In this document: piece after piece, positions 3,520-29,800 of the stretch | Layout: each line of letters opens with the position of its first letter | How positions within the stretch are numbered: position 1 is the first letter of the stretch | Source of the DNA: Gemmatimonadaceae bacterium | Lineage (GTDB): Bacteria > Gemmatimonadota > Gemmatimonadetes > Gemmatimonadales > Gemmatimonadaceae | Assembly: GCA_035559375.1 (NCBI GenBank) | Contig: DATMBI010000150.1 | Coordinates: 1-31,793, forward strand | Direction: 5' to 3' | DNA length: 31,793 nucleotides | Notes under the pieces: generated by a model | Database searches by the model: none | Told to the model about the DNA's origin: nothing | What the model saw: only the letters and a program-made list of their open reading frames with translations | Made by a program: the position numbers and the translations under genes

Positions 3520-4569
3520 ATGAGTCGGTTGTTGACGATCGATGGGTGCAAAGTCACGGACGATACGGATTGCTACGTGATTGCCGAGGTGGGTCACAAT
3601 CATCAGGGGAGTCTCGAGAAGTGTCGCGAGTTGTTCCGAGTGGCCAAGGAATGTGGGGTCAACGCCGTCAAGTTACAGAAGCGAGACAATCGGTCGCTTT
3701 ACACGAGAGCCCTCTTCAATAAACCTTACGATAACGAAAACAGTTTTGGGGCGACGTACGGTGAGCACCGTGAGGCGCTGGAGTTTGGCCGGGAAGAGTA
3801 TTGCGAACTCATGCGCTACTGTGCTGAGCTACAGCTCACGATGTTCGCGACAGCGTTTGACATCCCGAGTGCCGACTTGTTGGCGGATCTGAACGTTCCC
3901 GCATTCAAGATCGCATCGGGCGACCTGCGCTCGATACCACTGCTCAGGCACGTAGCGGCGTTTGGTAAACCGTTGATTGTCAGCACGGGTGGGGCCACTT
4001 GGGAGGATATCCAACGGGCCTACGACGCCATCATGCCGATCAATAGTCAGCTATGTTTCATGCAGTGCACCGCCGCGTATCCGGCGGCACCGGAGGACCT
4101 AAACCTCAGGGTTATTGAAGGTCTTCGACGCCGGTATCCAAATCTGGTTATCGGGTTCTCCGATCATGAGAATGGTATTGCTATGGCTGTCGCAGCGTTC
4201 GTCCTTGGAGCGAGAGTCATCGAAAAGCACTTCACTCTTAACCATACATGGAAGGGAACCGATCATGCCTTCTCGTTGGAGCCGATTGGCCTCCGGAAAC
4301 TTGTTCGGGATCTTAGGAGGGCACGGGTTGCGCTTGGTGACGGTGACAAGCGGCCCCTTCCGTCGGAGGAGGCACCCCTTCTGAAGATGGGGAAGAAGCT
4401 CGTGGCCTGCCGCGCTCTACCAGCAGGCCACCTCCTGAGACCAGAGGACATCGCCATGAAATCTCCTGGTGACGGACTGCCGCCTTCTTACATGGACCAG
4501 GTCGTAGGGAGACGCGTCGTGCGGGCGTTAGACGTTGATGAAAACATCACGTTGGATGTGCTGGAGTAA
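3520..4569 (+). CDS. neuB: N-acetylneuraminate synthase family (NeuB/NANS-like PEP-dependent ulosonate synthase) with C-terminal SAF domain
   Basis: IAEVGHNHQG, KLQKR, FKIASGD, STGG, QCTAAYP, GFSDHENG, EKHFTL motifs. ATG 3520 follows GGGGG; the ORF-track extension to 3214 overlaps the GT4 gene. Confidence 0.93.
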   Translation: MSRLLTIDGCKVTDDTDCYVIAEVGHNHQGSLEKCRELFRVAKECGVNAVKLQKRDNRSLYTRALFNKPYDNENSFGATYGEHREALEFGREEYCELMRYCAELQLTMFATAFDIPSADLLADLNVPAFKIASGDLRSIPLLRHVAAFGKPLIVSTGGATWEDIQRAYDAIMPINSQLCFMQCTAAYPAAPEDLNLRVIEGLRRRYPNLVIGFSDHENGIAMAVAAFVLGARVIEKHFTLNHTWKGTDHAFSLEPIGLRKLVRDLRRARVALGDGDKRPLPSEEAPLLKMGKKLVACRALPAGHLLRPEDIAMKSPGDGLPPSYMDQVVGRRVVRALDVDENITLDVLE

Positions 4570-4586
4570 CGTGGCGGTCGAGCACA

Positions 4587-5384
4587 GTGTTTGACCTGTC
4601 AGGTCAGATTGCGGTTGTCACCGGGGCTTTTGGGCGCCTTGGCCCCGTGTGGATCGAGGCCCTCCTTTCGGCTGGGTCGGCGGTGGCGGCAATCGAGCTG
4701 CCAGGGGTGACACCGGATTCGCGCTGGGTTGCAATTGAGCGACGGTTTAGTAACCGAGTGCGTGTTCTGCGGGCGGACGTGCGAGACCGGACGAGCTTGG
4801 AAGTCGCTGCAGGACAAGTCGAGCAGGAATTCGGGGTACCGACCATCTTGGTGAACAACGCAGGCATCGACCAACCACCGGGGAGGACACAAACGCACAC
4901 TGTGGAGTCGTTTCCCGTGCAGGAGTTCCGCAACGTTCTCGAGGTGAACCTGATTGGCGCCTTTCAGGTCACGCAGGTCTTCGGTCCCTCCATGGTGCGC
5001 GCTAGGCGTGGATCGATCGTGAACATCGGCTCACTTTATGGCAGCGTGTCGCCAGACGCTCGGCTCTATGAGCATCTGAGCAACGACCCGCCTTTTCTCA
5101 AGCCGCCAGGATATGGCGCTTCCAAGGCGGGCCTCATTAACCTGACCCGATACCTTGCGGCTCACTGGGGGCCGTTCGGGATACGCGTGAACGCATTGTC
5201 TCCGGGTGGGGTGACCGGTGACCAGGACGATGTGTTCAAGAGAAAGTTCGCGAAGCGCGTCCCCTTGGGTCGGATGGCGACGCCAGCTGATCTAGGAGGA
5301 CCGCTGTTGTTCCTGGCGTCTGATGCGTCGTCGTATGTCACTGGCATAGACCTCCAGGTAGACGGTGGATTCACGGTATGGTGA
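4587..5384 (+). CDS. Short-chain dehydrogenase/reductase (classical SDR, similar in type to PtmA-like SDRs of nonulosonate clusters)
   Basis: TGAFGRLG nucleotide-binding loop, NNAG, catalytic Ser in NIGSLYG, YGASK (YxxxK), IRVNALSPGG, PLGRMA. Confidence 0.92.
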   Translation: MFDLSGQIAVVTGAFGRLGPVWIEALLSAGSAVAAIELPGVTPDSRWVAIERRFSNRVRVLRADVRDRTSLEVAAGQVEQEFGVPTILVNNAGIDQPPGRTQTHTVESFPVQEFRNVLEVNLIGAFQVTQVFGPSMVRARRGSIVNIGSLYGSVSPDARLYEHLSNDPPFLKPPGYGASKAGLINLTRYLAAHWGPFGIRVNALSPGGVTGDQDDVFKRKFAKRVPLGRMATPADLGGPLLFLASDASSYVTGIDLQVDGGFTVW

Positions 5385-5400
5385 CCAGCTGGGGGTCGCT

Positions 5401-6873
5401 GTGGTTGATCTGACGATACCAGCGCGTATTCCAAACTTCGTGGCGGGCAAGGAAACTCCTCCGGCCCGAGAGACTTGGTTTCCCAAGTTCGATCCCGCGA
5501 CCGGACGTGTCGTTGCTGAAGTTGCGCGCTCGCAACGAGATGACGTTACTGCAGCTGTTTGTGCGGCTCAGCGGGCACAGCCCGGCTGGGCCTCCACCAC
5601 TGTTGTGCGAAGAGGAGAGACGCTCCGGGCGCTGACGCTAGAGCTCCAGGCGCATCAGATGGAGATGGCCCGAATCGTGGCCGCCGAGACAGGCAAGTCC
5701 CTCAAGGATGCCATGGCAGAGTGCGTCGGAGCCATTGAGATGGGGTTTTTCGTGGCCAGCGAGGGCCGGCGCTACTACGGGCGCACGACAACGAGCGCGA
5801 TTGAACACCGAGTGGCGATGACGGTACGCCAGCCGCTCGGCGTCGCCGGGCTCATCATTGCTGCCAATACGCCGCTCGCAAACGTGGCGTGGAAGGTCTT
5901 CCCCGCGTTGCTGTGCGGCAATGCGGTTGTTTTGAAGCCGGCGGAAGACACACCACTGAGCGCATGGGCCTTTGCTCGCCTTGCGGCCGCAGCGGCGGTG
6001 CCTGCCGGGGTACTCAATGTCGTTCACGGGTACGGCGATGAGGCCGGGGCTCCACTTGTGGAGTGTCCAGACGTAGCCGTTGTGAGCTTTACCGGGTCAT
6101 GCGAGGTTGGACGGACGATTGCACGAGTGGCCAGTGGCCGTCTGGCCAAGGTCTGCTTAGAGCTCGGCGGCAAGAACCCGCTCGTCGTTTGCGATGACGC
6201 GGATCTCGAGCGCGCTGTCGAGGCGGCGGCCCTATCGGGATTCAGCAATGCCGGACAGCGGTGTGCGGCGGGGAGCAGGGTAATCGTGTTCGACCGCGTT
6301 TACGAGGAATTCCGTGAACGACTGGTGCAGCGCGTCGGTCGCCTTCGGGTGGGTACCGCCAACGGAGACGATTTCGGTCCCGTGATTAATGAGATGCAGT
6401 TAAATGGAATGCTGGCGGCGATCGAGGCTGCGAAGACTCGTGGTATTCGTGTGTTGACAGGTGGGCACAGGCTGTCCGGGCCCGGCTACGACGGTGGCTA
6501 CTTTCTTGCGCCAACGATTCTGGAAGGTGCCGGGCCAGACGACGCCGTGTCGCAAACGGAACTGTTCGGGCCGATCATTGCTCTATATCGAGTCCGCACG
6601 CTGGACGATGCAGTACAGCTCGCCAACCAATCTCCTTTCGGGTTGACAGCGGCCGTGTGGACCCGTTCGATTCATCGAGCTATGGTGTTCATGGAGCGAG
6701 TGCAGGCCGGCGTAGTGTCTGTGAACGGGCCCACGTACGGTAGCGAGCCACACTTGCCTTTCGGTGGGTTGAAGGCGTCGGGCAACGGGCTGCGAGAGGC
6801 GGGGACTGAGGCCCTCGATGTCTATTCCGATTGGAAGACTATCTACCTGAACCACGATCCGCAGGCGCTCTAG
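5401..6873 (+). CDS. NAD(P)+-dependent aldehyde dehydrogenase
   Basis: LKPAE, FTGS, ELGGKNP (catalytic Glu), NAGQRCAAG (catalytic Cys), ELFGP, PFGGLKASGNG. Start estimated at GTG 5401 after GGGGG. Confidence 0.93.
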   Translation: MVDLTIPARIPNFVAGKETPPARETWFPKFDPATGRVVAEVARSQRDDVTAAVCAAQRAQPGWASTTVVRRGETLRALTLELQAHQMEMARIVAAETGKSLKDAMAECVGAIEMGFFVASEGRRYYGRTTTSAIEHRVAMTVRQPLGVAGLIIAANTPLANVAWKVFPALLCGNAVVLKPAEDTPLSAWAFARLAAAAAVPAGVLNVVHGYGDEAGAPLVECPDVAVVSFTGSCEVGRTIARVASGRLAKVCLELGGKNPLVVCDDADLERAVEAAALSGFSNAGQRCAAGSRVIVFDRVYEEFRERLVQRVGRLRVGTANGDDFGPVINEMQLNGMLAAIEAAKTRGIRVLTGGHRLSGPGYDGGYFLAPTILEGAGPDDAVSQTELFGPIIALYRVRTLDDAVQLANQSPFGLTAAVWTRSIHRAMVFMERVQAGVVSVNGPTYGSEPHLPFGGLKASGNGLREAGTEALDVYSDWKTIYLNHDPQAL

Positions 6874-6875
6874 GG

Positions 6876-7628
6876 TTGTCAGGTCCGACGGTTGTAGCTC
6901 TGATTCCTGCGCGTGGCGGCTCCAGACGTGTCCCGCGGAAGAACCTACGCGTTTTGGGTGGGCATCCTCTCCTGGCTTACACAATTGCAGCAGCTCGCTC
7001 AAGTGGTGTGTTCTCTGCGGTGATTGTCTCTTCCGACGACCCTGAGACCGTGGCGGTGGCCGAGTATTACGGCGCAGAGGTTCCATTCCTGCGCCCCGCG
7101 TGGATCGCGACCGAAACATCACTTGACATCGAGTGGGTGCGGTACACCCTTGATAGGCTGGCGCAAGCAGGGCAACGTTGGGACGCCTTCAGCATCCTGC
7201 GACCGACCAGCCCGTTTCGGTTGCCCGAAACGATTTGTCGTGCCTGGCGGCAATTCACTGCCGGTTGCGCGGCCGACTCGTTGAGGGCTGTCGAGCCGTG
7301 TCGGCAACATCCAGGTAAGATGTGGGTGGTCGAGGGCGATTTGATGAGGCCCCTGCTGAACGACGGGCCACGAGACCGACCGTGGCATAGCACTCCGTAT
7401 CAGGCACTACCACGCGTGTACGTCCAGAATGCGAGCTTGGAAATCGCGTGGAGCCGGGTTGTGGAGGAAACAGGAACCATAGCCGGAAAGCGGATAGCAC
7501 CGTTCTTCACGACGGGGTACGAGGGGTTTGATATCAATGATCTGCACGACTGGTGGTTGGCCGAGGAGCTTGTACGCCGGGGCGAGGCGGCGCTGCCTAA
7601 TGTGAACGAGATTCCCTACAAAACATGA
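6876..7628 (+). CDS. neuA: Acylneuraminate cytidylyltransferase family (CMP-ulosonate synthetase, single domain)
   Basis: ALIPARGGSRRVPRKN, VIVSSDD, LRPTSP, YVQNASL, DINDLHDW motifs. Start estimated at TTG 6876; the stop overlaps the next ATG (ATGA). Confidence 0.9.
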   Translation: MSGPTVVALIPARGGSRRVPRKNLRVLGGHPLLAYTIAAARSSGVFSAVIVSSDDPETVAVAEYYGAEVPFLRPAWIATETSLDIEWVRYTLDRLAQAGQRWDAFSILRPTSPFRLPETICRAWRQFTAGCAADSLRAVEPCRQHPGKMWVVEGDLMRPLLNDGPRDRPWHSTPYQALPRVYVQNASLEIAWSRVVEETGTIAGKRIAPFFTTGYEGFDINDLHDWWLAEELVRRGEAALPNVNEIPYKT

Positions 7629-9619
7629 CTGCAGGTGCGACATACCTGATTCCCTTTGAGGAATTCAAGCGCGTTAATACCGCCCCATTAGGCAAAGATG
7701 AGCGACTGGCTCTCATTGCTGACATGTGCCGGCTTAACGCACTGTCAGCGGTCAAGCGCGCCGGGTCCGGACACTTAGGGTCGAGTTTCAGCGCAATGGA
7801 TATCATGGTGCTGCTGTATCACGATCTGCTGAATGTCCGGAGCCTGGGCGTCTCGAACCCTCATCGCGACATCTTTCTCTCGTCCAAGGGGCACGACGTA
7901 CCCGCCCAGTACAGCGTACTGTTTTCCCTCGGCATCGTGTCACGCGAAAAGCTGCTGCGCCTACGCCGCCTAGACGGACTGGAGGGCCACCCCAACGTGC
8001 AAGTCCCTGGGATCGAAGCCAACACTGGGTCACTCGGAATGGGGATCTCGAAGGGACGAGGATTCGCGGTCGCGAAACGGCTGTTGAATCTGGGCGGTCG
8101 GGTGGTTGTCATGACAGGCGATGGCGAATTGCAGGAAGGTCAGGTTTATGAAGCATTGCAGACTACGGTACACCAGAAGGTCGGTATCACGGTCGTTGTG
8201 GACCACAACCAGCTACAGTCTGACAGGCCAGTGGTCGAGATCACCAACCTCGGGGATGTGGTTGCGAAACTCGGTGCATTCGGATGGCATGTCGAACGAT
8301 GCGATGGGCACGATTTTCCGGGCCTGAGGAGGGCGTTCGAACGGTGTTTCGCGCTGGCGGGTCAGCCTGGGATCATTGTCGCGGATACCGTGAAGGGTCG
8401 GGGCGTGTCGTTCATGGAGGGGCCGGCGGCTCTCCGGGAAGGACGGGGGACTTACAAATGGCACGCCGGCGCACCGGATGACGAGTCATTCCTTCGCGCA
8501 CACGACGAGCTTGTCGGTCGGATCATGGAACGGTGCGCTCGCGGCAACCTTGCGCCCGTTGAAGTCGAGCCCATTCCCTTGGAGCGAAAGCCGTCAACGG
8601 TCAGTGAGGAATACGTGGTGGAGGCCTTCGGGCGACGACTCGTTGAGCTGGCCGCCCGGCGGCCGGATCTCGTGGTCCTCGATGGCGACTTGGCGGCGGA
8701 CTGCCGTGTGCGGTATTTCGAGCTTGAGGTGCCTGCCCGGTTCATCGAGAACGGGATTGCCGAGCAGGACATGGTTTCGATGGCTGGTGCTTTGGCGCGG
8801 CAGGGGTTGCTTCCGGTCGTGAACAGCTTTGCCAGCTTCCTTGCCGCGCGGGCGAACGAGCAGATCTACAACAACGTGACCGAACGCTCCAAGGTGATTT
8901 ATGCCTGCCACTTTGGGGGGCTCATCCCCGCCGGACCTGGCCCATCTCACCAGAGTGTCCGAGACATTTCTCTGCTAAGCGCGCTCCCGGGTGTGACCAT
9001 CGTGGAACCGTGCAACGCCGTGGAGACCACGCGACTGCTCGACTGGTGCGTAGACGACGCCGCAGCATCGTGCGTCATCCGCCTGGCGATTGGGCCGTGT
9101 CCGCGAAGGATCACACTACCGGAGGACTATCGCCCGCTGCTCGGCGTGGGCACACTGCTCCGCCGAGGAACGGACGTCTTAGCCTTCTCCTATGGACCGG
9201 TGATGTTGCATGAGGTGTTGACAGCCGCCGAGAGTCTGGACGCTCAGGGTCTGAGCGTGGCTGTTGTGAACATGCCGTGGCTCAACGTGGTGGATCGATC
9301 CTGGCTGAGGGCCTTGGTGTCGTCATATGAGATCATCGTCACGATTGAGGACCATTCGTCAGTTGGCGGACTGGGGGACGCCATGTTGCGAACTCTCGCC
9401 GAGGAGGATTTGTTGCGCCGCCGGCGACACTGGACATTCGGATGTGACGACATCCCGGTGTGCGGTGCGCCCGGCGAGGTACTGAATCGGCATCGGCTCG
9501 ATGCATCATCAATTGCGCGCCGATTGGTTGCGATCGCTGAAACCGCAGGTCGCGTTCACACCCTGCCAGGCGTTGCCCGCGTCGGGTCGGAAGATGCGGC
9601 TGACGCCCCCATTGGGTAG
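7625..9619 (+). CDS. Transketolase-family TPP enzyme with fused N-, pyrimidine-binding and C-terminal domains
   Basis: SGHLGSSFS, SKGH, LEGHP, TGSLGMG, TPP motif GDGELQEG...N, TVKGRG, WHAGAP, GIAEQ, HQS, IEDHSSVGGLG. Confidence 0.9.
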   Translation: MTAGATYLIPFEEFKRVNTAPLGKDERLALIADMCRLNALSAVKRAGSGHLGSSFSAMDIMVLLYHDLLNVRSLGVSNPHRDIFLSSKGHDVPAQYSVLFSLGIVSREKLLRLRRLDGLEGHPNVQVPGIEANTGSLGMGISKGRGFAVAKRLLNLGGRVVVMTGDGELQEGQVYEALQTTVHQKVGITVVVDHNQLQSDRPVVEITNLGDVVAKLGAFGWHVERCDGHDFPGLRRAFERCFALAGQPGIIVADTVKGRGVSFMEGPAALREGRGTYKWHAGAPDDESFLRAHDELVGRIMERCARGNLAPVEVEPIPLERKPSTVSEEYVVEAFGRRLVELAARRPDLVVLDGDLAADCRVRYFELEVPARFIENGIAEQDMVSMAGALARQGLLPVVNSFASFLAARANEQIYNNVTERSKVIYACHFGGLIPAGPGPSHQSVRDISLLSALPGVTIVEPCNAVETTRLLDWCVDDAAASCVIRLAIGPCPRRITLPEDYRPLLGVGTLLRRGTDVLAFSYGPVMLHEVLTAAESLDAQGLSVAVVNMPWLNVVDRSWLRALVSSYEIIVTIEDHSSVGGLGDAMLRTLAEEDLLRRRRHWTFGCDDIPVCGAPGEVLNRHRLDASSIARRLVAIAETAGRVHTLPGVARVGSEDAADAPIG

Positions 9620-14375: not shown

Positions 14376-15734
14376 TCAGCCGAGTCCCTCATCTGTGACG
14401 ATAGCGCCACCCACAGCGGACGTGTACAACCATTGCATAAGCAAGAAATATGCGGCGCCCATGTAGCTCGAGAACGACGCGTTGAATACGGACGATGTGA
14501 GATACGCGAGGGTCACGCCCGTGGCACAGAACCCGATGCGAGCGCGTTGGCGATCATCGGCACCCATTAGCGCGAACACCCTGCGGAATCCGAAGAAGAG
14601 AGCGAACACAAAGGTGAACGGAAACAACACGGAGTATCCGACAGCGAAGAGGAAGTAGTTATTGTGCGGGACGAGCGCATTGGGATTGTAGGAGGTTGCG
14701 ACTGACGCTGGTCCGAGACCTTCGGGATGGAATCGAATCAGCTCGATTGAGACGCTCCAGGCAGTGGCCATGCGCTCTCGTACGGTCTCCGCCTCCCAAA
14801 AACGAAACGCCTCTGCGAGGCGTCGCAGAGCCAGTGTCTCGGAGTCGAGAAAGAGGGCGGGTACGACCCAAAACAAAGAGAGGAAGAGAGCGAGTAGCCC
14901 CACACCAACGACGAATCGGGCCGGGTTTGCCCGCGCCCCGTGAATCAATGTGACGCCGAGCCAGGTGGATGCCAGAACGATGCCGGACATCATGATCGGT
15001 GTACGGTCTGGGAGGAGTACGTCCACGACCACGAGACTGAGGAGCACCATCCAGGTACCGACGCGCTCTCGGGGAGGAACGAGGTCCCGAAGGACGAATA
15101 GTCCGACCCCCAGGATGTGGACCACAATCTGGTATTCCGCAAACGACGCGAATGTCGCGAACGGCCGGATTAGATTGGCTTGGTAGAGGTTTCTCGCTTC
15201 CCAGGATTCCATTTGCGCCCTGACGTACGCCATATCCCAAGGCGGCAGCGTGAGTTCTTGGGTCAGGAAATGCACGCCCTGGAACAGTGCATACATCTGG
15301 ACCAGGAGGAGCGCTCCGAGGACGGCGTTCGCGGGAAACTGGTGGCCGGCGAAGATGAGAAGGAATACAAAGCCAATGAAGAATTGCTTGACACCGAAGA
15401 TGCTCGCCAGCGGATCCCCGTAAAGTACCCCCAGTAGCGTCACAACGATCAGCGCCCCAGCCGCCCAGATTGCGAGGGGCTGGTCGCGACCCCGCGCCAC
15501 AGCCATGAGTACTCGTACGGCGACCGCCAGCCCCATGAGGCCATAGTAGAGATTCGTGAACAAGGCCAGGCCCAGATAGTACGCCGTGAGGCGATCCAGC
15601 AGCGCGTTGAAGAAGAAGAGCCAGAGAATGGCAAGCAGGAGCCATCTGTGGGCACGCTCGACAGCCGCGCCTGCTGCGGCTCTCTGGGCGGTGGGCCACA
15701 GGGTACCCACCGCGAGGTGGGGTGCGCCCATCAT
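14376..15734 (-). CDS. Putative Wzy/O-antigen ligase-like polymerase (polytopic membrane protein)
   Basis: About 10-11 TM segments, RPFATF, periplasmic R...W...P.GLG...PHNNYF motif typical of Wzy_C/WaaL. ATGA-coupled, and sits among GTs and wzx. Confidence 0.7.
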   Translation of the reverse strand: MMGAPHLAVGTLWPTAQRAAAGAAVERAHRWLLLAILWLFFFNALLDRLTAYYLGLALFTNLYYGLMGLAVAVRVLMAVARGRDQPLAIWAAGALIVVTLLGVLYGDPLASIFGVKQFFIGFVFLLIFAGHQFPANAVLGALLLVQMYALFQGVHFLTQELTLPPWDMAYVRAQMESWEARNLYQANLIRPFATFASFAEYQIVVHILGVGLFVLRDLVPPRERVGTWMVLLSLVVVDVLLPDRTPIMMSGIVLASTWLGVTLIHGARANPARFVVGVGLLALFLSLFWVVPALFLDSETLALRRLAEAFRFWEAETVRERMATAWSVSIELIRFHPEGLGPASVATSYNPNALVPHNNYFLFAVGYSVLFPFTFVFALFFGFRRVFALMGADDRQRARIGFCATGVTLAYLTSSVFNASFSSYMGAAYFLLMQWLYTSAVGGAIVTDEGLG

Positions 15735-16660
15735 CGCCGTGAGCGAGACGCCGCTGGATTATTATCGCTCAAACGTTCAGCCATGACGAAGATGTTGGCG
15801 CCGAACTCCGTCTGTGTTATGGACTGTCGAACCATGGCCACGATTCTATCGCCCCATCTGTGCCAAATGTGTGCCGGGACTTGCGGAACACGGCCTAGCC
15901 CGTTGGGTCCGAGTAATCGAAACATGCGGTACCAAAAAGTGAACTGCCCGGGCTGGTACTGACGGACCAAAACGGGACGGAATCTGCAACGCCGGAGCCG
16001 GGACATCCACTCCTCCTCGCTCAAGAGGTTTAGGTGGAACGATTCCCGGTTGATCCGGTCGCTCGCTGCTGCGCCAAAGTAGAACTGCAGGTGTTCGGTG
16101 TAGCGCCGCACGGGTACCGTGAAGGCCAGGACCCCCGACGGGGCGAGTATTCGCGCTAACTCGGCAAGGATAGCGTCAAGGGCCGCTACGTGCTCCAACA
16201 CGGAGTTGGAGAAAACCGACTGGACAACCCTGTCCGGGAGTGGAATGTGGCAATCAGTCGAATTGACGAGCTGGCGATAGATGCCCCATCGGCTGGCAAG
16301 TGCAAGGGCTGTCGCATCTGTGTCGACACCGAATTCGACCTCTCGAAGAAGAACTGAGGCGAAAGAGCCGTCGCCGGTACCAAAATCTAGCCGGGGCGGC
16401 GGAAGTCGGTCGAGATACTTGCGAAAAAGTGATAGCTCCTGCGCTCTCCAGAAGCTGTGGGCGAAACTACGATATCGTGCATACAGAATCTCGTCGTCGC
16501 ACCAGAGCAGTTCCAGTGGTTCTGGGTCACGAAGATGGATGCCCGTCTTGTCTTGGCCCGGCGACCGAACGGTCGGATGCCGAGGTCGCCTTCTCAGCGC
16601 AAGGAGAGTGTCGAGCGCAGTGCTAGCCCACCCGGTGGCGCGGAGCAGCCGCTCGCTCAT
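15731..16660 (-). CDS. Class I SAM-dependent methyltransferase
   Basis: LDFGTGDG, GVD, FSNSVLEHV, ILAPSGVLAFTVP. ATGA overlaps at both ends. Confidence 0.85.
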   Translation of the reverse strand: MSERLLRATGWASTALDTLLALRRRPRHPTVRSPGQDKTGIHLRDPEPLELLWCDDEILYARYRSFAHSFWRAQELSLFRKYLDRLPPPRLDFGTGDGSFASVLLREVEFGVDTDATALALASRWGIYRQLVNSTDCHIPLPDRVVQSVFSNSVLEHVAALDAILAELARILAPSGVLAFTVPVRRYTEHLQFYFGAAASDRINRESFHLNLLSEEEWMSRLRRCRFRPVLVRQYQPGQFTFWYRMFRLLGPNGLGRVPQVPAHIWHRWGDRIVAMVRQSITQTEFGANIFVMAERLSDNNPAASRSRR

Positions 16661-18375
16661 GATCCCAGGCTCCTGCCGGCGACGCGTTCTGCCGGGTACA
16701 CGAACTCGGTGCCCTTGAGAACGCCGTCGCAGATCACGTCCAGGCCAAGACTGGCGCCGGGCTTCAAGTCGCTGAGGTGCTTGACTATGACGCGGTAGGG
16801 GGGATTGCCCGGTATGGGCTCCATGAAGGGTAGCGGGATCATGCGACGGAAGAAAAAGTGATATGCGTATCGGCGCGCACGTTGGAGGGTTTCAGCCTCA
16901 AGGCGCGGGAAGTTGGGAAGTCGACCGAGCAAGGCATCGTACTCGTCTACAGAGCTCGCGTCGTACGTCAGTCCTTTGTTCCGAATCCAGGCCTCGCCGG
17001 CGACGATCACTGGTATTCCCATGCTCGTCAGCTCTACCCCCGTCTTCGTGCCATAGATGATCGTGGCTACGCATCGCTCCATGACGGCGTACGTGCTGAC
17101 GTTGCTCTCGGGGTCGATGACGAAGACGTTCGGCGGGAGCGACGGGAACGCCTTCCGAAGCTCAGCGACCAGGGGCTGTCGTGACGGCAAGGTGCCGCGT
17201 ATCTCCGCAGGGTGAACCCGAATCACCAGTTGCAGGTCACTGCGCGCGGCGAAGTACCGAACCGTGTGAAGAACCCAATCCAGCATGCTTGGAAAGGCGT
17301 TCGCTGGGTAATGGAGTTGTGCATCCCACATGACGTTCGTGAGCAGACCAACACACGGTCGCGAGAAATCAACTCCCAGTTTGCGGGCGATCCCATTCAC
17401 ATCCTCCTCAGGCTTGTCATGAAACCAAATCCAATCTTGCGTACCGTACCAGCGACTGCGGAGGTAGCTGAGCAGTTCACGTTCGCGCTCAGGAGACCAC
17501 GGAATGTCTTCCCACAGGTCCGTGGGCTCCGTCATCAGTGCGTGATGATAGGTTTGATGGTGGCTGAAAATGAAACATTGCTTGCGATACGCTGGGTTCC
17601 AGTTGACAACGCGCACGCCTTCGGCACGGCAGGCTTCCGCGACCAGTCCCTGTGGAACGTAGATGCCGTGATGGAACACGGCGACATCGTAGCGATGCGT
17701 CCGTAAGAGCTGTCGAACAGCGAGTGCTGCCAGCACGGCGGCGTGGAGATACCTGCGTAGGATGCTTTCGCCATAGGGTTCCCCCTCGAGCGTAGCACGC
17801 GCGAAGAAACGAAGAGCGCCCGCAAGGGCGTGCTCGCCGACGGCGATGCCGTCGACGCGGAAGTTGGAAACCGTTGAAAGGTCCGCTTCCCGTGTGACGT
17901 CGGCAGCGCGCCGCCGCATGTCCTCTGTGAGATACTGACTGTAGCGGTGCACCGGGAGCGCGAGTTGATCGTAGACACGCAGTGCCGGTTCAAAGCAGTG
18001 GTGACAAAGGTCGGTCCGCGGTCCCGTCGCCGCGAAGTGCCGGAGGGACGGGTACCAGCTCGCGTCGCAATGAAGGCAGGCGGGGAGTGCCCTGTCGCAC
18101 AACAATACATGGGCTTCGGCGCCACGAAGTGTCAGCGCCGCGCCCAAGGCGCTTTCGAGCGAGGTCGCAGCCCAATGACCACCTACGCTCGTGGCGATGA
18201 GAACGCGCGGGCCCCGTTGGCGACGCCCAAGAAGAACTGAGCGATCCTGGCCTAACATGCGGGACCAGTTGGGAAGGGCATCAGTAAGTGCCCGCCGCCG
18301 TCGAACGTACAAGCGGATGAGCCGGTCGAGCCGCGGGTAGCGACGCATATGTTGACGGAGGAGGCTCTTGATCAC
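16657..18375 (-). CDS. Capsule-synthesis (KpsS/KpsC-like) glycosyltransferase; candidate CMP-ulosonate transferase
   Basis: LLTNVMWDAQL, LVIRVHPAE (HP motif), IIYGTKTGVELTSMGIPVIVAG resemble the Capsule_synth signature. SD-like GAGGT lies 6 nt before the GTG. Confidence 0.7.
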   Translation of the reverse strand: MIKSLLRQHMRRYPRLDRLIRLYVRRRRALTDALPNWSRMLGQDRSVLLGRRQRGPRVLIATSVGGHWAATSLESALGAALTLRGAEAHVLLCDRALPACLHCDASWYPSLRHFAATGPRTDLCHHCFEPALRVYDQLALPVHRYSQYLTEDMRRRAADVTREADLSTVSNFRVDGIAVGEHALAGALRFFARATLEGEPYGESILRRYLHAAVLAALAVRQLLRTHRYDVAVFHHGIYVPQGLVAEACRAEGVRVVNWNPAYRKQCFIFSHHQTYHHALMTEPTDLWEDIPWSPERERELLSYLRSRWYGTQDWIWFHDKPEEDVNGIARKLGVDFSRPCVGLLTNVMWDAQLHYPANAFPSMLDWVLHTVRYFAARSDLQLVIRVHPAEIRGTLPSRQPLVAELRKAFPSLPPNVFVIDPESNVSTYAVMERCVATIIYGTKTGVELTSMGIPVIVAGEAWIRNKGLTYDASSVDEYDALLGRLPNFPRLEAETLQRARRYAYHFFFRRMIPLPFMEPIPGNPPYRVIVKHLSDLKPGASLGLDVICDGVLKGTEFVYPAERVAGRSLGS

Positions 18376-18406: not shown

Positions 18407-19108
18407 TCATTGAGTCGCTGGTCCGGCGCCAGGAACTCCAAGGCGCGCAAGGAACATTTCGGGATCTGGGAGCCGCGGCGTTGACCACCAGGGCCTGGCA
18501 GCTCGGAGCGCAGGCAAGGCATATGAGCCCGTGGCCACGGCGATCACCCGAGCGCCGATGGCGTTGCCACAGCGGATGTCCGCCGGAGTGTCACCGATAA
18601 CAACTGGGTCTAGTGGCGTGCCATCTCCAAGGAGTGCTCTGGCCATGCGGAGTGCCGCTCTGGCAATTGCGGGTCTACTTGCGCCGTGACTTGAGAAGGC
18701 GCCTCCGGCCTCGAAGTACTCGATCAGCCCGTAGTGGGCGAGCTTGGCGCGTGCACCGTTAGCCGTGTTTCCTGTCAGGAGCATCGAGCGGACGTCCTGT
18801 CGATGGCGGACACTCTCGAGGATGTCTCGCACACCGGGGAGAACACTGCCCACGCGACTCGGGAGGCACTCGGGCAGCAGCGTTTCGTAGCGTGCAACGA
18901 TCTGTTCGAGGGGCGCGCGCCTGTCTGACGGGACACTGTTCATGAGCGCCTCTGCGATCTCGTGGTCAGTGAGCCCGGCTGTCGGAAAGTTTTCGAGCGT
19001 TCGAGTCACGCCGGTACAATCGAGCACGGCCTGCTCCCAGGCTGCGATCCCGGCGCGCGCGGTGGTCAGAAGCGTTCCGTCGATGTCCCAGAACAACACG
19101 GTGACCAC
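18407..19108 (-). CDS. HAD-superfamily hydrolase (phosphatase)
   Basis: Motif I WDIDGTL, motif II LLTGN, motif IV VIGDTPADI. Confidence 0.88.
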   Translation of the reverse strand: MVTVLFWDIDGTLLTTARAGIAAWEQAVLDCTGVTRTLENFPTAGLTDHEIAEALMNSVPSDRRAPLEQIVARYETLLPECLPSRVGSVLPGVRDILESVRHRQDVRSMLLTGNTANGARAKLAHYGLIEYFEAGGAFSSHGASRPAIARAALRMARALLGDGTPLDPVVIGDTPADIRCGNAIGARVIAVATGSYALPALRAARPWWSTPRLPDPEMFLARLGVPGAGPATQ

Positions 19109-27132: not shown

Positions 27133-28293
27133 GTGCGGTTGCTCTTTGTGTCGCACTCCTTTCCGCCGGCCGGCGCGCCATTGTCCAATGTGGGGGGTAT
27201 GCAGCGCGTGGCCCAGGGGCTGCACGCTGCGCTGAGGCGACGACCGGAGGTGACGCTGAGTTCCGTTGTCCTGCGAACCTCCTGGAGCAAGACGCACTTG
27301 CGGGTTCCCGTGTTCATGGCCAGGCTGTTGTGGGACATCCCCCGGCGTGTGGAACGCGCGGGGATTGAGGTCGTCCTGTTCTCATCTCTGGTTACGGCGG
27401 CCGCGGCGCCGTTCCTCAAGCGACGCCTGTCGCGGCATCGTGTTTGTCTTGTCGCTGTCGTTCACGGACGTGATGCGACGCTTCCCGTGAGGCCGTATCA
27501 ATGGGTGGTGCCGCGCGTGCTGGGCGCGTTGGACGGCGTACTGGCAGTGAGCGAGGCCACGGGGCGAGCCTGTATGGCGCGGGGGCTTCACGCCTCAAAG
27601 CTGCACGTGGTAGGCAACGGCGTTGATCCGGTGGCCTCGTCTTCCGAAGACCGCGCGACTGCACGCGCGGCCTTGTTGGCACGTCTCGCAGCATCGGGTT
27701 GCGCCGTCCCTGGCGACGGCTTTCTCGTGTTCAGCGCCGGGCGGCACGTGGCGCGCAAGGGGTTTCGCTGGTTCGCGAGCGAGGTGGTGCCGCGCCTGAC
27801 TCCCGACGTGCACTACGTGTTGGCGGGCGAAGGGCCGGAGACCGCGGCGATCCGAGCGACAATCACGCAGGCGCACCTGGCAGGGAGAGTCCATTTGCTC
27901 GGCAAGGTTACGGACACCGATCTCGCACGTCTGTACCACGGCTCAGATCTATTCGTGATGCCGAATCTTGCGGTGCCGGGTGATCTGGAGGGATTCGGGC
28001 TTGTGGTCGCGGAGGCAGCCCTTGCCGGCCTGCCGGTGGTGGCGGCCGAGGTTGACGGAATCGCGGAAGTTCTGCGCATCACCGAAGGCGGCACGCTTGT
28101 GCCGAGTGCGGATGCCCACGCGTTCGTGGCTGCGATTGAGGGTTACCGTGAAGGAGCGTTCCGCCGGAAGGTCGGCGACAGGGCGGCTGAGTGTGCGCGT
28201 GAGCGCCTGACCTGGCCCCATGTGGTGACACGGTACTTGAAGGCAATGGAGGAGATTCGCGATGGCCGCCGGGTGCCCGCGTTTGCCGTCTAG
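27133..28293 (+). CDS. Glycosyltransferase family 4
   Basis: RLLFVSHSFPP, GGMQRV, GRHVARKGF, EGFGLVVAEAALAG. Start set at GTG 27133. Confidence 0.9.
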   Translation: MRLLFVSHSFPPAGAPLSNVGGMQRVAQGLHAALRRRPEVTLSSVVLRTSWSKTHLRVPVFMARLLWDIPRRVERAGIEVVLFSSLVTAAAAPFLKRRLSRHRVCLVAVVHGRDATLPVRPYQWVVPRVLGALDGVLAVSEATGRACMARGLHASKLHVVGNGVDPVASSSEDRATARAALLARLAASGCAVPGDGFLVFSAGRHVARKGFRWFASEVVPRLTPDVHYVLAGEGPETAAIRATITQAHLAGRVHLLGKVTDTDLARLYHGSDLFVMPNLAVPGDLEGFGLVVAEAALAGLPVVAAEVDGIAEVLRITEGGTLVPSADAHAFVAAIEGYREGAFRRKVGDRAAECARERLTWPHVVTRYLKAMEEIRDGRRVPAFAV

Positions 28294-29800
28294 CCGGTTC
28301 GTATTCCTCCTGGTGCCCGCGGTGTGCGCCTCCGCCATGGCGCAGGAACCCGCGCAGGGCTCGCGCAACCTGCCGCTCGGTCATTGGGCGTATGAGTACA
28401 TCGGGCGACTGAGAGACCGCGGCTATCTCGCGAACCTCAATCCCCTCGTGCAGCCCTACCGCAGGCTCGAGGTGGCGAAGGGACTGTCCGTGCTCGATCC
28501 CGACACGCTGAACCGTGCGGTCAGAGAATGGGTGAGCCTGTTGCGTGATGAGCTGGCTCCCGAACTGCTGCGCCTGGCTCGTGGGTCAGGCGGCAAGGTG
28601 GGCGTCGAGCTTGCCGTGGGCGGACGGGTGTCCACCAGCCAGCGGCTGGATCCCTTGCGGCCGCTGGGCGAGGAGGATGCATGGCCCCGGTTCAGCGCGG
28701 CGGGATGGCTCGAGACGGGACCTCTTGCGGCCGAGAGTCGGCTGGCGGGGGATGTGTACCTCACGTACGACCCCGACGGAGTTGATCCCGGGCAGAGGCG
28801 TGGCGGGCGTACAGACAACGCATACGTCTCGGCCACGTTCCCCTTCGGCGGCATTACGGTGGGACGCCTGAAGCGGAATTGGTCGGCTATCGGCACCAAC
28901 GGTCTGATGGTCTCGGACGTCGCGACGCCATACCCTCAGCTCGAGTTCGAGGCCGGGGTGGGGCGTTTGACGCTGCGGTCTTTCACCGGCGAGTTGGAGA
29001 CCCTCGGGTCATCCAAGCGATACCTGGCGGCTCATCGCCTCGATTACCAGAGCCGGGATTTCGTCGCCTCATTCGGCGAGTCATTCCTCTACGTGCCGGG
29101 GGAAGGCCAGCTGGCCCTCCGGTACTTAAACCCTCTGGAGTTCTTTTTCTTTGACGCCGACAACCAGCCCACCGACCATGCGGTCAACCTGCTGCTGGAT
29201 GCGCAAGTGTGGTATCGCCGCGGGGTGACGGCGTTCTACTTCGAATGGATGCTGGACGACATTGATGTAATCCCGGGCGCGCGCGATCCGGAGCCGCTGC
29301 TGTACGCCTTCCGGGTCGGCTCGAGAGTCTCACCGCGAGCCGGTTGGTTCAACCTGAGTCTGGAGTACCAGCAGGTCGCCGCATTCGCCTACCGCACCCC
29401 CAACGTGGTGGACCGCTACAGTTTCCTGGGCCGGGGGCTGGGCGAGAACTACTCCGATTTCGATCGCCTGACCCTGGCCGCCGACCTATTTCCCCGCGTG
29501 CGCGGGCTGCGGATCTCTCCGACATTGGCGCTTCAGCGACAAGGCGAAGGCAATTTCCGTGATTCGGTACCGCCCATGGCCGAATACCTCGCCAGCCCCA
29601 CGATCTTTCTGGGTACCGCCGAGCGCACCTTCCGACTGGGCGTGCGCGGGCGCTATCAGCCCAACCGCTACGTCTGGGTATCGTGGGACGTGGGCGAGAA
29701 CTTCGTGGAGAACGTAGGGCACGTGGCAGACATGAGTGAGCGCCGGTTCGCGGCCGTCGTCGAGCTCGGGGCAGCTGTGCCGCTGGGGCGCCGGAATTGA
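28262..29800 (+). CDS. Outer-membrane protein, capsule-assembly Wzi-like
   Basis: GGAGG SD, signal peptide ending ASAMA-QEP, LPLGHWAYEYI, HRL, LNPLEFF, EWMLDD and amphipathic beta-strands. Confidence 0.6.
   Translation: MAAGCPRLPSSRFVFLLVPAVCASAMAQEPAQGSRNLPLGHWAYEYIGRLRDRGYLANLNPLVQPYRRLEVAKGLSVLDPDTLNRAVREWVSLLRDELAPELLRLARGSGGKVGVELAVGGRVSTSQRLDPLRPLGEEDAWPRFSAAGWLETGPLAAESRLAGDVYLTYDPDGVDPGQRRGGRTDNAYVSATFPFGGITVGRLKRNWSAIGTNGLMVSDVATPYPQLEFEAGVGRLTLRSFTGELETLGSSKRYLAAHRLDYQSRDFVASFGESFLYVPGEGQLALRYLNPLEFFFFDADNQPTDHAVNLLLDAQVWYRRGVTAFYFEWMLDDIDVIPGARDPEPLLYAFRVGSRVSPRAGWFNLSLEYQQVAAFAYRTPNVVDRYSFLGRGLGENYSDFDRLTLAADLFPRVRGLRISPTLALQRQGEGNFRDSVPPMAEYLASPTIFLGTAERTFRLGVRGRYQPNRYVWVSWDVGENFVENVGHVADMSERRFAAVVELGAAVPLGRRN

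What the first reader, a model, noticed from the sequence alone, without database searches (positions are those of the whole stretch)
8612..9091. Transketolase has lost its phosphate clamp and the stereo-determining Asp
Seen, by motif alignment to the usual transketolase C-domain pattern: ATRDAYG becomes YVVEAFG (V332, 8618), DADLxxS becomes DGDLAAD (D359, 8699), GEDGxTHQ becomes AGPGPSHQ (P438, 8936), and YIRLGR becomes VIRLAI (I489, 9089). Catalytic His residues, the TPP motif and GIAEQ Glu remain. Knowledge: E. coli transketolase R358, S385 and R520 bind the substrate phosphate, and D469 binds the aldose C2-OH. Inference: a catalytically competent enzyme re-tuned for an unphosphorylated, non-standard substrate rather than a pentose-phosphate enzyme.
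Basis: partly seen in the sequence, partly recalled or inferred. Interest (0 to 1): 0.75.

Follow-up and report, generated by a model that had tools for sequence, protein, structure and literature searches.

The report
Phosphate-blind transketolase in sialic-type sugar operon
This gene encodes an apparently active transketolase-like enzyme from a large, unstudied, multi-phylum family that has replaced every residue that grips sugar phosphates, and it most likely cuts two carbons off the tail of a sialic-acid-like sugar to make a new acidic surface sugar.

Summary
ORF 7625-9619 (+, 664 aa) has V332, D359, P438 and I489 where transketolases have the phosphate-binding Arg, Ser and Arg and the stereo-determining Asp. 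All cofactor residues and catalytic His residues are kept. This is not a local loss. The same signature is present in 120 protein homologues and 80 genomic loci. It extends through a clade reaching about 30% identity, which sits apart from canonical short transketolases. The genome also carries an ordinary transketolase elsewhere.

The gene overlaps the stop codon of a CMP-sugar synthetase gene by an ATGA. It closes a NeuB-SDR-ALDH-cytidylyltransferase-TK cassette. All four partner genes are present in 34 of 53 loci with enough flank, from more than eight phyla.

In a Bacteroidota variant, a class-III aminotransferase replaces the ALDH. This points to an aldehyde intermediate. Best reading, by inference only: the SDR makes a terminal ketol, the TK removes C2, and the ALDH oxidises the stump. 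This matches the 5-ketogluconate-to-tartrate route.

An AlphaFold model unexpectedly shows a DXS-like chain arrangement.

The scan has met this cassette before on other DNA, and those follow-ups reached similar readings. No paper describing it was found.

The parts
7625..9619 (+). Transketolase-like ThDP enzyme, 664 aa (P0001), of the no-phosphate-clamp clade.
   Evidence: Pfam Transketolase_N, Transket_pyr and Transketolase_C. Best NCBIfam hit is NF004559, 382 bits, below the 488 cut-off. Best PDB sequence match is human transketolase, E 7e-65.
7715..8419 (+). PP (diphosphate-binding) domain, residues 31-265. It holds H50, H90, H122 and the GDGE motif (D166) with N195.
   Evidence: VIA Z 39.4, rmsd 1.9 A, to the split transketolase alpha chain 6YAK.
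8621..9085 (+). Pyr (pyrimidine-binding) domain, residues 333-487. It holds E380, F402/F405, H429 and H442, and the changed positions D359 and P438.
   Evidence: VIA Z 37.0, rmsd 2.1 A, to the split transketolase beta chain 6YAJ.
9152..9514 (+). Transketolase C-terminal domain, residues 510-630.
8618..8620 (+). V332, at the position of the phosphate-binding Arg (E. coli R358, human R318).
   Evidence: The position is A, V, S or T in 120 homologues.
8699..8701 (+). D359, at the position of the phosphate-binding Ser (E. coli S385, human S345). It is invariant across the whole clade.
8936..8938 (+). P438, at the position of the stereo-determining Asp (E. coli D469, human D424).
9089..9091 (+). 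I489, at the position of the phosphate-binding Arg (E. coli R520, human R474).
3520..4569 (+). NeuB-family ulosonate synthase. The start codon is uncertain; the open frame begins at 3214.
   Evidence: Pfam NeuB and SAF. Below the NeuB and PseI equivalog cut-offs. Best PDB matches are SpsE, PseI and NeuB.
4587..5384 (+). Short-chain dehydrogenase, the proposed tail (omega-1) alcohol oxidase.
   Evidence: Among the best NCBIfam hits are D-mannonate oxidoreductase, gluconate 5-dehydrogenase and KduD, all below their cut-offs; the top-ranked hit is a generic SDR model. The second-best PDB match is gluconate 5-dehydrogenase 1VL8.
5365..6873 (+). NAD(P)-dependent aldehyde dehydrogenase, proposed to oxidise the aldehyde left by the C2 cleavage.
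   Evidence: Pfam Aldedh, E 4e-151. Nearest NCBIfam model is alpha-ketoglutaric semialdehyde dehydrogenase, below its cut-off.
6831..7628 (+). CMP-ulosonate synthetase (CTP_transf_3, NeuA-like). Its TGA stop codon overlaps the transketolase ATG.
16657..18375 (-). 572-aa protein with a weak Capsule_synth (KpsS/KpsC-like) match. It is the candidate transferase for the CMP-sugar.
   Evidence: Orthologues lie directly downstream of the transketolase gene in L006, L007, L023, L024, L025, L034, L050, L066 and L072.
18407..19108 (-). HAD-family hydrolase (233 aa), the candidate ulosonate-phosphate phosphatase of this lineage.
   Evidence: Its orthologue (56% identity) follows the transketolase gene directly in the closest locus, L009. 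Most other cassettes have a KdsC-type HAD between NeuB and the SDR.

Best explanation
The gene encodes a functional ThDP-dependent, transketolase-type C-C lyase/transferase from an old, widespread, uncharacterised clade. This clade has swapped the sugar-phosphate clamp (Arg, Ser, Arg) and the C2-OH/C4-OH-reading Asp for A/V, Asp, Pro and Ile. The enzyme works inside a CMP-ulosonate pathway, not the pentose phosphate pathway. The proposed route is as follows; the gene content is shown and the chemistry is inferred. (1) The NeuB-like synthase condenses PEP with an aldose phosphate. (2) A HAD phosphatase frees the terminal CH2OH. (3) The SDR oxidises the next-to-last hydroxyl, which creates a terminal -CHOH-CO-CH2OH ketol, the substrate head group of a transketolase donor. 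(4) The transketolase-like enzyme binds this ketol with its intact His set and ThDP, and cleaves off the two terminal carbons as ThDP-bound glycolaldehyde. The rest of the molecule carries no phosphate, and its 'C4 oxygen' would be the pyranose ring oxygen, so neither the clamp nor the Asp is needed. (5) The ALDH oxidises the new aldehyde irreversibly to a second carboxylate. This gives a 3-deoxy-ulosaric acid two carbons shorter; if the synthase makes a C9 sugar, the product is a heptulosaric acid. (6) The NeuA-like enzyme activates the product with CMP, and the KpsS/C-like protein transfers it to the Wzx/Wzy-dependent polysaccharide. My confidence that this is a non-phosphate-sugar transketolase-like enzyme dedicated to this cassette is about 0.9. 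The figure given for this explanation refers to the specific tail-trimming mechanism.
For: Residues: the four substitutions are confirmed and fixed, and all catalytic and cofactor residues are invariant. H122 is kept. It corresponds to E. coli H100, which binds the donor C1-OH and is Phe in DXS (PMC7661550). This argues for a hydroxylated ketol donor rather than pyruvate.

Context: an ATGA overlap joins the gene to the cytidylyltransferase gene. Of 53 loci with at least 5 kb upstream, 34 carry NeuB, SDR, ALDH and the cytidylyltransferase within the flank, nearly all in that order, and 47 carry at least two of these partners. The same cassette surrounds relatives at only 39-44% identity.

Natural swap: four Bacteroidota and Kapaibacterium loci have cytidylyltransferase-TK-class III aminotransferase-SDR-HAD-NeuB and no ALDH. 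ALDH and omega-aminotransferase share aldehyde substrates, so the pathway contains an aldehyde that is not the final product.

Phosphatase: a KdsC-family HAD sits between NeuB and the SDR in most cassettes. The tail is therefore dephosphorylated before the later steps.

Precedent: 5-keto-D-gluconate is cleaved by transketolase to a C4 semialdehyde, which a semialdehyde dehydrogenase oxidises to tartrate (PMC13527115). The SDR here is most similar to gluconate 5-dehydrogenase, KduD and mannonate oxidoreductase-type enzymes.

Engineering precedent: changes at S385, D469 and R520 move E. coli transketolase to non-phosphorylated aldehydes (PMC5073344; PMC7661550).

A housekeeping transketolase is present elsewhere in the genome.
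Against: No activity, product or glycan data exist for any member. The order of steps cannot be read from the sequence. A transketolase needs an acceptor for the C2 unit, or must release glycolaldehyde, and no acceptor is evident. The replacing residues are neutral or acidic, so nothing obvious binds the ulosonate carboxylate. Conserved R363, R446 and R494 are candidates but could not be placed in space. Four Chloroflexota loci lack the ALDH and have GDSL acylhydrolases there instead. Three or four loci lack the SDR in the cassette; L038 has a GFO/IDH/MocA oxidoreductase nearby. Six loci, mainly Melioribacter and relatives, carry the gene away from any partner. The similarities of the SDR and ALDH to sugar-acid enzymes are below family cut-offs. 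The AlphaFold model shows a DXS-like, not transketolase-like, chain arrangement, which leaves some room for DXS-like chemistry.
Confidence: 0.55

Rival explanations
1. The SDR and the ALDH (or aminotransferase) act alone on the primary alcohol end of the ulosonate. This would resemble KdnB/KdnA in Kdo8N synthesis and give a full-length ulosaric or omega-amino acid. The transketolase-like enzyme would then do a different job in the pathway, such as making or editing an unphosphorylated precursor or supplying a C2 (glycolyl-type) unit.
For: The Kdo8N pathway shows that alcohol-to-aldehyde-to-amine chemistry on an ulosonate tail needs no transketolase (own knowledge: Gattis et al. 2013, cited in PMC5125639). 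The ALDH/aminotransferase swap is equally compatible with this chemistry. In Melioribacter the transketolase gene is unlinked from the SDR-HAD-NeuB genes.
Against: This leaves the most tightly conserved and translationally coupled member of the cassette without a defined role. The SDR resembles secondary-alcohol sugar-acid dehydrogenases, not primary-alcohol oxidases. No amino-sugar, ACP or lipoyl genes that would accept a glycolyl unit are in the cassette.
Confidence: 0.17
2. The enzyme runs in the synthetic direction. It adds a C2 ketol, from hydroxypyruvate or a free ketose, to an aldehyde made by the SDR on the ulosonate tail, extending the chain by two carbons.
For: Transketolases are reversible, and hydroxypyruvate is a general donor that needs no phosphate clamp (PMC7661550). 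The His set for a hydroxylated donor is kept.
Against: The ALDH or aminotransferase would then compete with the transketolase for the same aldehyde, or have no substrate. An irreversible ALDH placed after a reversible cleavage is the arrangement known from the tartrate route.
Confidence: 0.1
3. The enzyme is functionally a DXS/E1-like decarboxylase-carboligase. It would act on an alpha-keto acid, either pyruvate or the 2-keto acid of the ulosonate itself.
For: The AlphaFold model superposes as a whole chain on DXS (rmsd 2.2-2.6 A over 510-550 residues). It superposes on transketolase chains only domain by domain (rmsd about 19.5 A). There is a Pfam DXP_synthase_N hit (E 2e-11). Some database entries name relatives as DXS.
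Against: The TIGR00204 score is 163 against a cut-off of 466. The His that is Phe in DXS is invariant His here. The DXS phosphate-binding Arg residues and Asp are also missing. Decarboxylating the ulosonate would destroy the 2-keto acid that the adjacent CMP-synthetase needs.
Confidence: 0.07
4. The gene encodes an ordinary pentose-phosphate transketolase, or an inactive relic.
For: It has transketolase Pfam domains and is annotated as 'transketolase' in several sources.
Against: All phosphate ligands are absent, and a canonical transketolase is present elsewhere in the genome. All catalytic residues are under strict conservation across phyla, which argues against a relic.
Confidence: 0.03

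Closest known systems
Short single-chain (human-type) transketolases (PDB 4KXU, 3MOS) and the split-gene transketolase of Carboxydothermus hydrogenoformans (PDB 6YAK, 6YAJ)
   Same: These are the closest by sequence (27-30% identity to human transketolase, 31-38% to the split chains). They share the three domains, the GDG...N motif, the cofactor Glu, and the five donor-binding and catalytic His positions. Human transketolase has Gln at the last of these; this protein has His.
   Different: The phosphate-binding Arg, Ser and Arg and the Asp are all replaced. The linker contains a 21-residue helix, and the predicted chain arrangement is DXS-like rather than transketolase-like. The gene sits in a glycan operon.
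E. coli transketolase variant S385Y/D469T/R520Q (PDB 5HHT), evolved in the laboratory
   Same: Three of the four positions changed here are the ones changed in that variant to move from phosphorylated to non-phosphorylated aldehydes (PMC5073344).
   Different: The natural substitutions differ (D, P and I, plus A/V at R358). They are ancient and come with a different predicted architecture.
[quoted passage not shown]
   Same: [quoted passage not shown]
   Different: Sequence identity is lower (21-26%). The score is below the DXS family cut-off. His is kept where DXS has Phe. The GAP-phosphate Arg residues and Asp are absent.
5-keto-D-gluconate to L-tartrate route (gluconate 5-dehydrogenase, transketolase, semialdehyde dehydrogenase)
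   Same: It uses the same three enzyme classes in the same logic: oxidise the next-to-last carbon of a sugar acid, cleave off C2 with transketolase, then oxidise the aldehyde to a second carboxylate (PMC13527115).
   Different: That route uses ordinary, promiscuous transketolases on a C6 acid. Here a dedicated transketolase clade is hard-wired to a NeuB/CMP cassette, and the substrate is presumably a 3-deoxy-2-ulosonate.
AniP of anisomycin biosynthesis, and other transketolase-like enzymes with non-phosphorylated substrates
   Same: It is a transketolase-family ThDP enzyme in which the phosphate ligands (R358, S385, H461, R520) are not conserved and the substrates are unphosphorylated (PMC11387542).
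   Different: AniP has also lost the His-rich donor site and uses an aryl-pyruvate. This protein keeps the full His set.
Kdn and Kdo8N pathways (Kdn-9-P synthase with a KdsC-type phosphatase and CMP-Kdn synthetase; KdnB/KdnA tail amination)
   Same: They share the synthase, C0-type HAD phosphatase and cytidylyltransferase core, and tail-end aldehyde chemistry on an ulosonate (partly own knowledge).
   Different: Neither pathway contains a transketolase or an ALDH. The synthase here scores below the NeuB and PseI equivalog cut-offs.

Membership tests
Transketolase, EC 2.2.1.1 | PP, Pyr and TKC three-domain architecture | tested here: met
   Pfam PF00456 (E 2e-31), PF02779 (E 7e-24) and PF02780 (E 3e-18), all above the gathering scores.
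Transketolase, EC 2.2.1.1 | ThDP/Mg2+ motif GDG(X)nN and the cofactor-activating Glu | tested here: met
   G165-D166-G167-E168, N195 and E380 are invariant in 120 homologues and in the 63-sequence clade alignment.
Transketolase, EC 2.2.1.1 | Donor-binding and catalytic His set (E. coli H26, H66, H100, H261, H473) | tested here: met
   H50, H90, H122, H280 and H442 are all invariant.
Transketolase, EC 2.2.1.1 | Sugar-phosphate clamp (E. coli R358, S385, R520; H461 also contributes) | tested here: not met
   These positions are V332, D359 and I489. Only the H461 equivalent (H429) is kept in this orthologue group (residue roles from PMC11387542).
Transketolase, EC 2.2.1.1 | Asp that reads the acceptor C2-OH / donor C4-OH (E. 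coli D469) | tested here: not met
   The position is P438. It is invariant in 120 homologues and at least 90% conserved across the clade.
Transketolase, EC 2.2.1.1 | Score above the curated equivalog cut-offs of NCBIfam | tested here: not met
   NF004559: 382 against 488. NF004556: 277 against 575. TIGR00232: 137.5 against 682.
Transketolase, EC 2.2.1.1 | [quoted passage not shown] | tested here: inconclusive
   The monomer AlphaFold model (pTM 0.92) has the DXS-like intrachain pairing. A canonical short transketolase run through the same pipeline gave the transketolase arrangement (TM 0.94). A dimer could not be modelled.
Transketolase, EC 2.2.1.1 | Xylulose-5-P:ribose-5-P ketol transfer activity | not testable with these tools
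   This needs an enzyme assay.
[quoted passage not shown] | Score above the equivalog cut-off | tested here: not met
   TIGR00204: 163 against 466. NF003933: 128 against 395.
[quoted passage not shown] | Phe in place of transketolase His100 (pyruvate donor), plus Arg and Asp ligands for glyceraldehyde-3-P | tested here: not met
   H122 is invariant (rule from PMC7661550). The equivalents of R478 and D427 are I489 and P438.
[quoted passage not shown] | Intrachain pairing of the PP and Pyr domains | tested here: met
   This is met in the predicted model only: rmsd 2.2-2.6 A over 510-550 residues to DXS chains.
Uncharacterised no-clamp transketolase-like clade of NeuB cassettes | Signature: no Arg before the A[FY]G motif; D[AG]DLxxD; P[AGS]xPGxSHQ; no Arg at the R520 position | tested here: met
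   In a FastTree of 80 representatives, the canonical and HGW-type proteins form one starred branch (98), and the no-clamp rows lie on the other side.
Uncharacterised no-clamp transketolase-like clade of NeuB cassettes | Neighbourhood of NeuB, SDR, ALDH (or class III aminotransferase) and a CMP-transferase | tested here: met
   Window genes 3520-9619. Related loci.

The most novel reading that the evidence does not exclude
The cassette is the first biosynthetic route to a CMP-activated 3-deoxy-hept-2-ulosaric acid, a Dha-like doubly acidic sugar; in the aminotransferase variant the product would be a 7-amino-heptulosonate. A nine-carbon sialic-type sugar would be made first. Its glycerol tail would then be trimmed by an SDR, transketolase and ALDH triad. 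The transketolase involved would belong to a distinct enzyme class that combines transketolase chemistry with a DXS-type intrachain active site. The activated form and the biosynthetic enzymes of heptulosaric acid (Dha) remain unidentified in plants (PMC12168206), so this would give that question a testable model.
Probability: 0.35. Interest if true: 0.85.

Novelty: new variant of a known kind. Interest (0 to 1): 0.68.

Why it matters
Transketolase is a textbook enzyme whose natural substrates are sugar phosphates. Use of non-phosphorylated substrates is known mainly from laboratory evolution and a few antibiotic pathways. Here nature appears to have made the same move long ago. It changed the same positions that protein engineers target, and produced a family found in at least 466 species-level genomes from Gemmatimonadota, Desulfobacterota, Chloroflexota, Acidobacteriota, Planctomycetota, Bacteroidota, Ignavibacteriota, Actinomycetota and a methanogen. 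This family is wired into an undescribed sialic-acid-type sugar pathway. If the proposed mechanism holds, three things follow. It would define a new class of bacterial surface sugars, either two-carbon-trimmed ulosaric acids or omega-amino-ulosonic acids. It would provide a natural scaffold for biocatalytic C-C chemistry on unphosphorylated polyols. It would also offer a precedent for how heptulosaric acids such as Dha could be made. In addition, it warns that database labels of 'transketolase' or 'DXS' on thousands of these genes are misleading for metabolic reconstruction.

Tried and rejected
1. Literature. Searches for transketolase with nonulosonic; for NeuB, ALDH and cytidylyltransferase together; for heptulosaric or ulosaric; and for CMP-Dha found no paper that describes this cassette or clade. 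Subscription journals are not covered by the library.

2. Inspecting the active site in three dimensions. The tools return no coordinates.

3. Dimer modelling, to settle a transketolase-like versus a DXS-like active site.

4. Naming the sugar. PDB and NCBIfam comparisons of NeuB, the SDR, the ALDH, the HAD and the cytidylyltransferase reached only family level. The chain length and stereochemistry of the NeuB product cannot be derived. If the aldose were mannose-type, the trimmed product would be an L-arabino rather than the D-lyxo (Dha) isomer. This rests on my own stereochemical reasoning and was not tested.

5. The 572-aa candidate transferase gave no significant PDB sequence match.

6. The glycolyl-donor idea (QncN/L-like). 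I rejected it because no ACP, lipoyl or amino-sugar genes accompany the cassette.

7. The idea that the ALDH merely detoxifies released glycolaldehyde. I consider it less likely because an aminotransferase replaces the ALDH in the variant cassette, but it is not excluded.
Full report
**The gene and the observation**

The finding lies in ORF 7625-9619 (+), which encodes 664 aa (P0001). Pfam finds the three transketolase domains: PP at residues 31-265, Pyr at 333-487 and TKC at 510-630. NCBIfam scores stay below every equivalog cut-off. The best transketolase model scores 382 against a cut-off of 488, TIGR00232 scores 137 against 682, and the DXS model TIGR00204 scores 163 against 466.

The four motifs sit exactly at the stated coordinates. 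Three independent alignments agree on the equivalences:
- phmmer against human transketolase (E 7e-65);
- MAFFT against the genome's own canonical transketolase;
- hhalign of a 63-sequence clade profile against a 17-sequence profile of canonical short transketolases (probability 100%, E 1e-135).

All three place V332, D359, P438 and I489 at the positions of E. coli R358, S385, D469 and R520.

R358, S385, H461 and R520 bind the substrate phosphate. D469 hydrogen-bonds the sugar hydroxyl and selects the stereoisomer (PMC11387542).

The cofactor and catalytic apparatus is intact. H50, H90, H122, H280, H442, D166, N195, E380, F402 and F405 are invariant in 120 homologues.

**This is a family trait, not a local loss**

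The 120 closest database proteins are 57-72% identical. All have A/V/S/T at position 332, Asp at 359 and Pro at 438, and all but one (Val) have Ile at 489. The 80 best genomic loci, out of 466 species genomes with a relative, show the same D[AG]DLxxDC, PAGPG and I[GS]PSP motifs in nearly every case; the few misses are regex misses and none shows a contrary residue.

An exhaustive search of 50%-identity representatives shows that the signature continues down to about 30% identity. The signature is: no Arg before the A[FY]G motif, DADLxxD, PxxPGxSHQ, and no Arg at the R520 position. Across 63 such sequences D359 is invariant and P438 is at least 90% conserved, together with all catalytic residues.

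Canonical short transketolases (TREAY, DADLSxST, GEDGxSHQ, YIRxxR) appear only at 36% identity or less. In a FastTree of 80 representatives, the canonical proteins and a third 'HGW' group form one well-supported branch (98). The no-clamp rows lie on the other side. This is compatible with a single ancient change; the tree is unrooted.

The window's genome is a MAG of 2.26 Mb at 79% completeness. It also carries an ordinary transketolase, split over two contig ends, with Arg, Ser, Asp and Arg in place.

**Genomic context**

The window is a Wzx/Wzy-type polysaccharide locus. It encodes a priming transferase, GT4 enzymes, a flippase, methyltransferases, Wzz and Wza.

The transketolase ATG overlaps the TGA stop codon of a NeuA-like cytidylyltransferase gene (ATGA overlap). 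Upstream lie an ALDH, an SDR and a NeuB-family synthase, packed with small overlaps.

The same set of genes (NeuB, often a KdsC-type HAD, SDR, ALDH, cytidylyltransferase, TK), usually in this order, occurs in contigs from many phyla:
- Gemmatimonadota, Desulfobacterota, Chloroflexota, Acidobacteriota and Planctomycetota;
- Actinomycetota (Gaiellales);
- a Methanoregulaceae archaeon.

Of 53 loci with at least 5 kb upstream, 34 have all four partners, 47 have at least two, and 6 have none. Relatives at only 39-44% identity sit in the same cassette.

In many loci a protein of about 570 aa follows the transketolase gene. In this window it is at 16657-18375 and has a weak Capsule_synth match.

The HAD belongs to the KdsC (ulosonate-phosphate phosphatase) family. 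This lineage instead has a 233-aa HAD at 18407-19108, whose orthologue follows the transketolase gene directly in the closest locus, L009.

**A natural swap that points to an aldehyde**

Four loci from Bacteroidota and Kapaibacterium (L040, L043, L074, L077) carry a variant cassette. The order is a transferase-like gene, cytidylyltransferase, TK (53-55% identical, same signature), a class-III aminotransferase, SDR, KdsC-type HAD and NeuB. There is no ALDH.

ALDH and omega-aminotransferases share one kind of substrate, an aldehyde. The simplest reading is that the SDR and the transketolase together generate a sugar aldehyde. One cassette type oxidises it, and the other aminates it.

Melioribacter has its transketolase gene alone among unrelated genes. 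It encodes the variant-type SDR-HAD-NeuB genes elsewhere in the genome.

**Proposed mechanism (inferred)**

After the synthase and the phosphatase have acted, the tail of the ulosonate ends in -CHOH-CHOH-CH2OH. Oxidation of the next-to-last carbon by the SDR gives -CHOH-CO-CH2OH. This is the head group that transketolase recognises in a donor ketose.

The intact His set includes H122. This residue binds the donor C1-OH in transketolase and is Phe in pyruvate-using DXS (PMC7661550). It fits such a hydroxylated ketol.

Cleavage would remove two carbons and leave an aldehyde. The ALDH would make the step irreversible and create a second carboxylate.

The part of the substrate that reaches the former phosphate site would be a pyranose ring with a carboxylate and no phosphate. 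The oxygen that D469 normally reads would be the ring oxygen. This could explain why the clamp and the Asp were replaced together.

The same three-enzyme logic has been demonstrated for 5-keto-D-gluconate. Transketolase cleaves it to a C4 semialdehyde, and a semialdehyde dehydrogenase oxidises that to tartrate (PMC13527115). The SDR here is most like gluconate 5-dehydrogenase, KduD and mannonate oxidoreductase-type enzymes, though below their cut-offs.

Laboratory evolution of E. coli transketolase toward non-phosphorylated aldehydes changed S385, D469 and R520 (PMC5073344; PMC7661550).

If the synthase makes a C9 sugar, the product would be a 3-deoxy-hept-2-ulosaric acid. The chain length and stereochemistry cannot be read from the sequence.

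**An unexpected structural prediction**

AlphaFold2 with the 63-sequence alignment gave a confident model (pLDDT 94, pTM 0.92). The results by comparison were:
- Sequence: the nearest PDB entries are human transketolases.
- Single domains: they match the split transketolase chains (Z 39.4, rmsd 1.9 A; Z 37.0, rmsd 2.1 A).
- Whole chain: it superposes on DXS (rmsd 2.2-2.6 A over 510-550 residues; TM 0.75/0.88).
- Whole chain against transketolase or PDH-E1: the fit is poor (rmsd about 19.5-20 A; TM 0.45).

As a control, a canonical short transketolase (P0258) was run through the same pipeline. It gave the transketolase arrangement (TM 0.94 to human transketolase). That control is 48% identical to a solved structure, so it is a weak control.

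The linker of P0001 contains a 21-residue helix (286-306) that is absent from the control model.

This may be a real feature of the clade. It may also be an artefact of monomer prediction, in which contacts that really form between two chains are satisfied within one chain. I could not model the dimer.

**What is not explained**

- The acceptor for the C2 unit is unknown.
- No basic residue obviously replaces the clamp to bind a carboxylate.
- Some cassettes lack the ALDH and have GDSL acylhydrolases in its place.
- Some cassettes lack the SDR.
- A 51%-identical relative sits with NeuB and an SDR in what looks like a natural-product cluster.

**Novelty and earlier notes**

I found no paper on this clade or cassette. 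The enzymes and activated form of Dha are still listed as unknown in plants.

Earlier notes of this scan describe the same cassette on other genomes and reach similar readings. They are not independent evidence. I re-derived the residue equivalences, the conservation and the context here. I also added the aminotransferase swap, the profile-profile alignment, the clade tree and the DXS-like model.

**Verdict**

This is a new variant of a known enzyme kind, embedded in an apparently undescribed sugar pathway. It is worth an experiment.

Noticed in passing
L040:7132-14617 (also L043, L074, L077): A variant cassette in Bacteroidota and Kapaibacterium. The order is a transferase-like gene, CTP_transf_3, the no-clamp transketolase, a class-III aminotransferase, an SDR, a KdsC-type HAD and NeuB. 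The aminotransferase takes the place of the ALDH. The product would be an omega-amino rather than a dicarboxylic ulosonate.
   Followed up: partly
window 7625-9619 (model m94fc89c1ccc8): The AlphaFold model has a DXS-like whole-chain arrangement (rmsd 2.2-2.6 A to DXS chains, about 19.5 A to transketolase chains), although the sequence is closer to transketolases. A canonical short transketolase modelled the same way came out transketolase-like. This may be real or a monomer-prediction artefact.
   Followed up: partly
window 16657-18375 (-): A 572-aa protein with only a weak Capsule_synth (KpsS/KpsC) match and no PDB sequence match. Its orthologues follow the transketolase gene directly in many related loci, which makes it the likely transferase for the new CMP-sugar.
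   Followed up: partly
window 18407-19108 (-): A 233-aa HAD_2-type hydrolase. In the closest related locus (L009) its orthologue lies directly after the transketolase gene. Most other cassettes instead have a 173-aa KdsC-type HAD between NeuB and the SDR. This looks like a non-orthologous replacement of the phosphatase.
   Followed up: partly
P0180, P0194, P0197, P0215, P0217, P0222 and relatives: A third clade of single-chain transketolase-like proteins. It has HGW in place of the SGH motif and STG in place of TR. It keeps DADLEKSCRL, TDGKSHQ and LHR. It forms a 100%-supported branch in the tree. Its function is unknown to me.
   Followed up: no
L089:2395-9902: A 51%-identical relative (P0122; PAGAG instead of PAGPG) lies next to an SDR and near a NeuB gene. 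It has no ALDH or cytidylyltransferase. The cluster also contains a sulfotransferase, PhyH, NUDIX, P450 and asparagine synthase genes, and looks like a small-molecule pathway.
   Followed up: no
L017:5716-8951 and L029:7312-8934: In some Chloroflexota cassettes the ALDH is absent. One or two large GDSL-type acylhydrolase genes sit between the cytidylyltransferase and the transketolase.
   Followed up: no
G000 contigs C168:3-752 (-) and C195:2-256 (+): The genome's ordinary transketolase is cut by two contig ends. The N-terminal half is on C168 and the C-terminal half is on C195. This is an assembly gap, not a split gene.
   Followed up: partly
window 14376-15734 (-), 28262-29800 (+), 30282-31643 (-): Three long ORFs with no Pfam match. 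The first lies among GT4 and methyltransferase genes and could be the Wzy polymerase.
   Followed up: no
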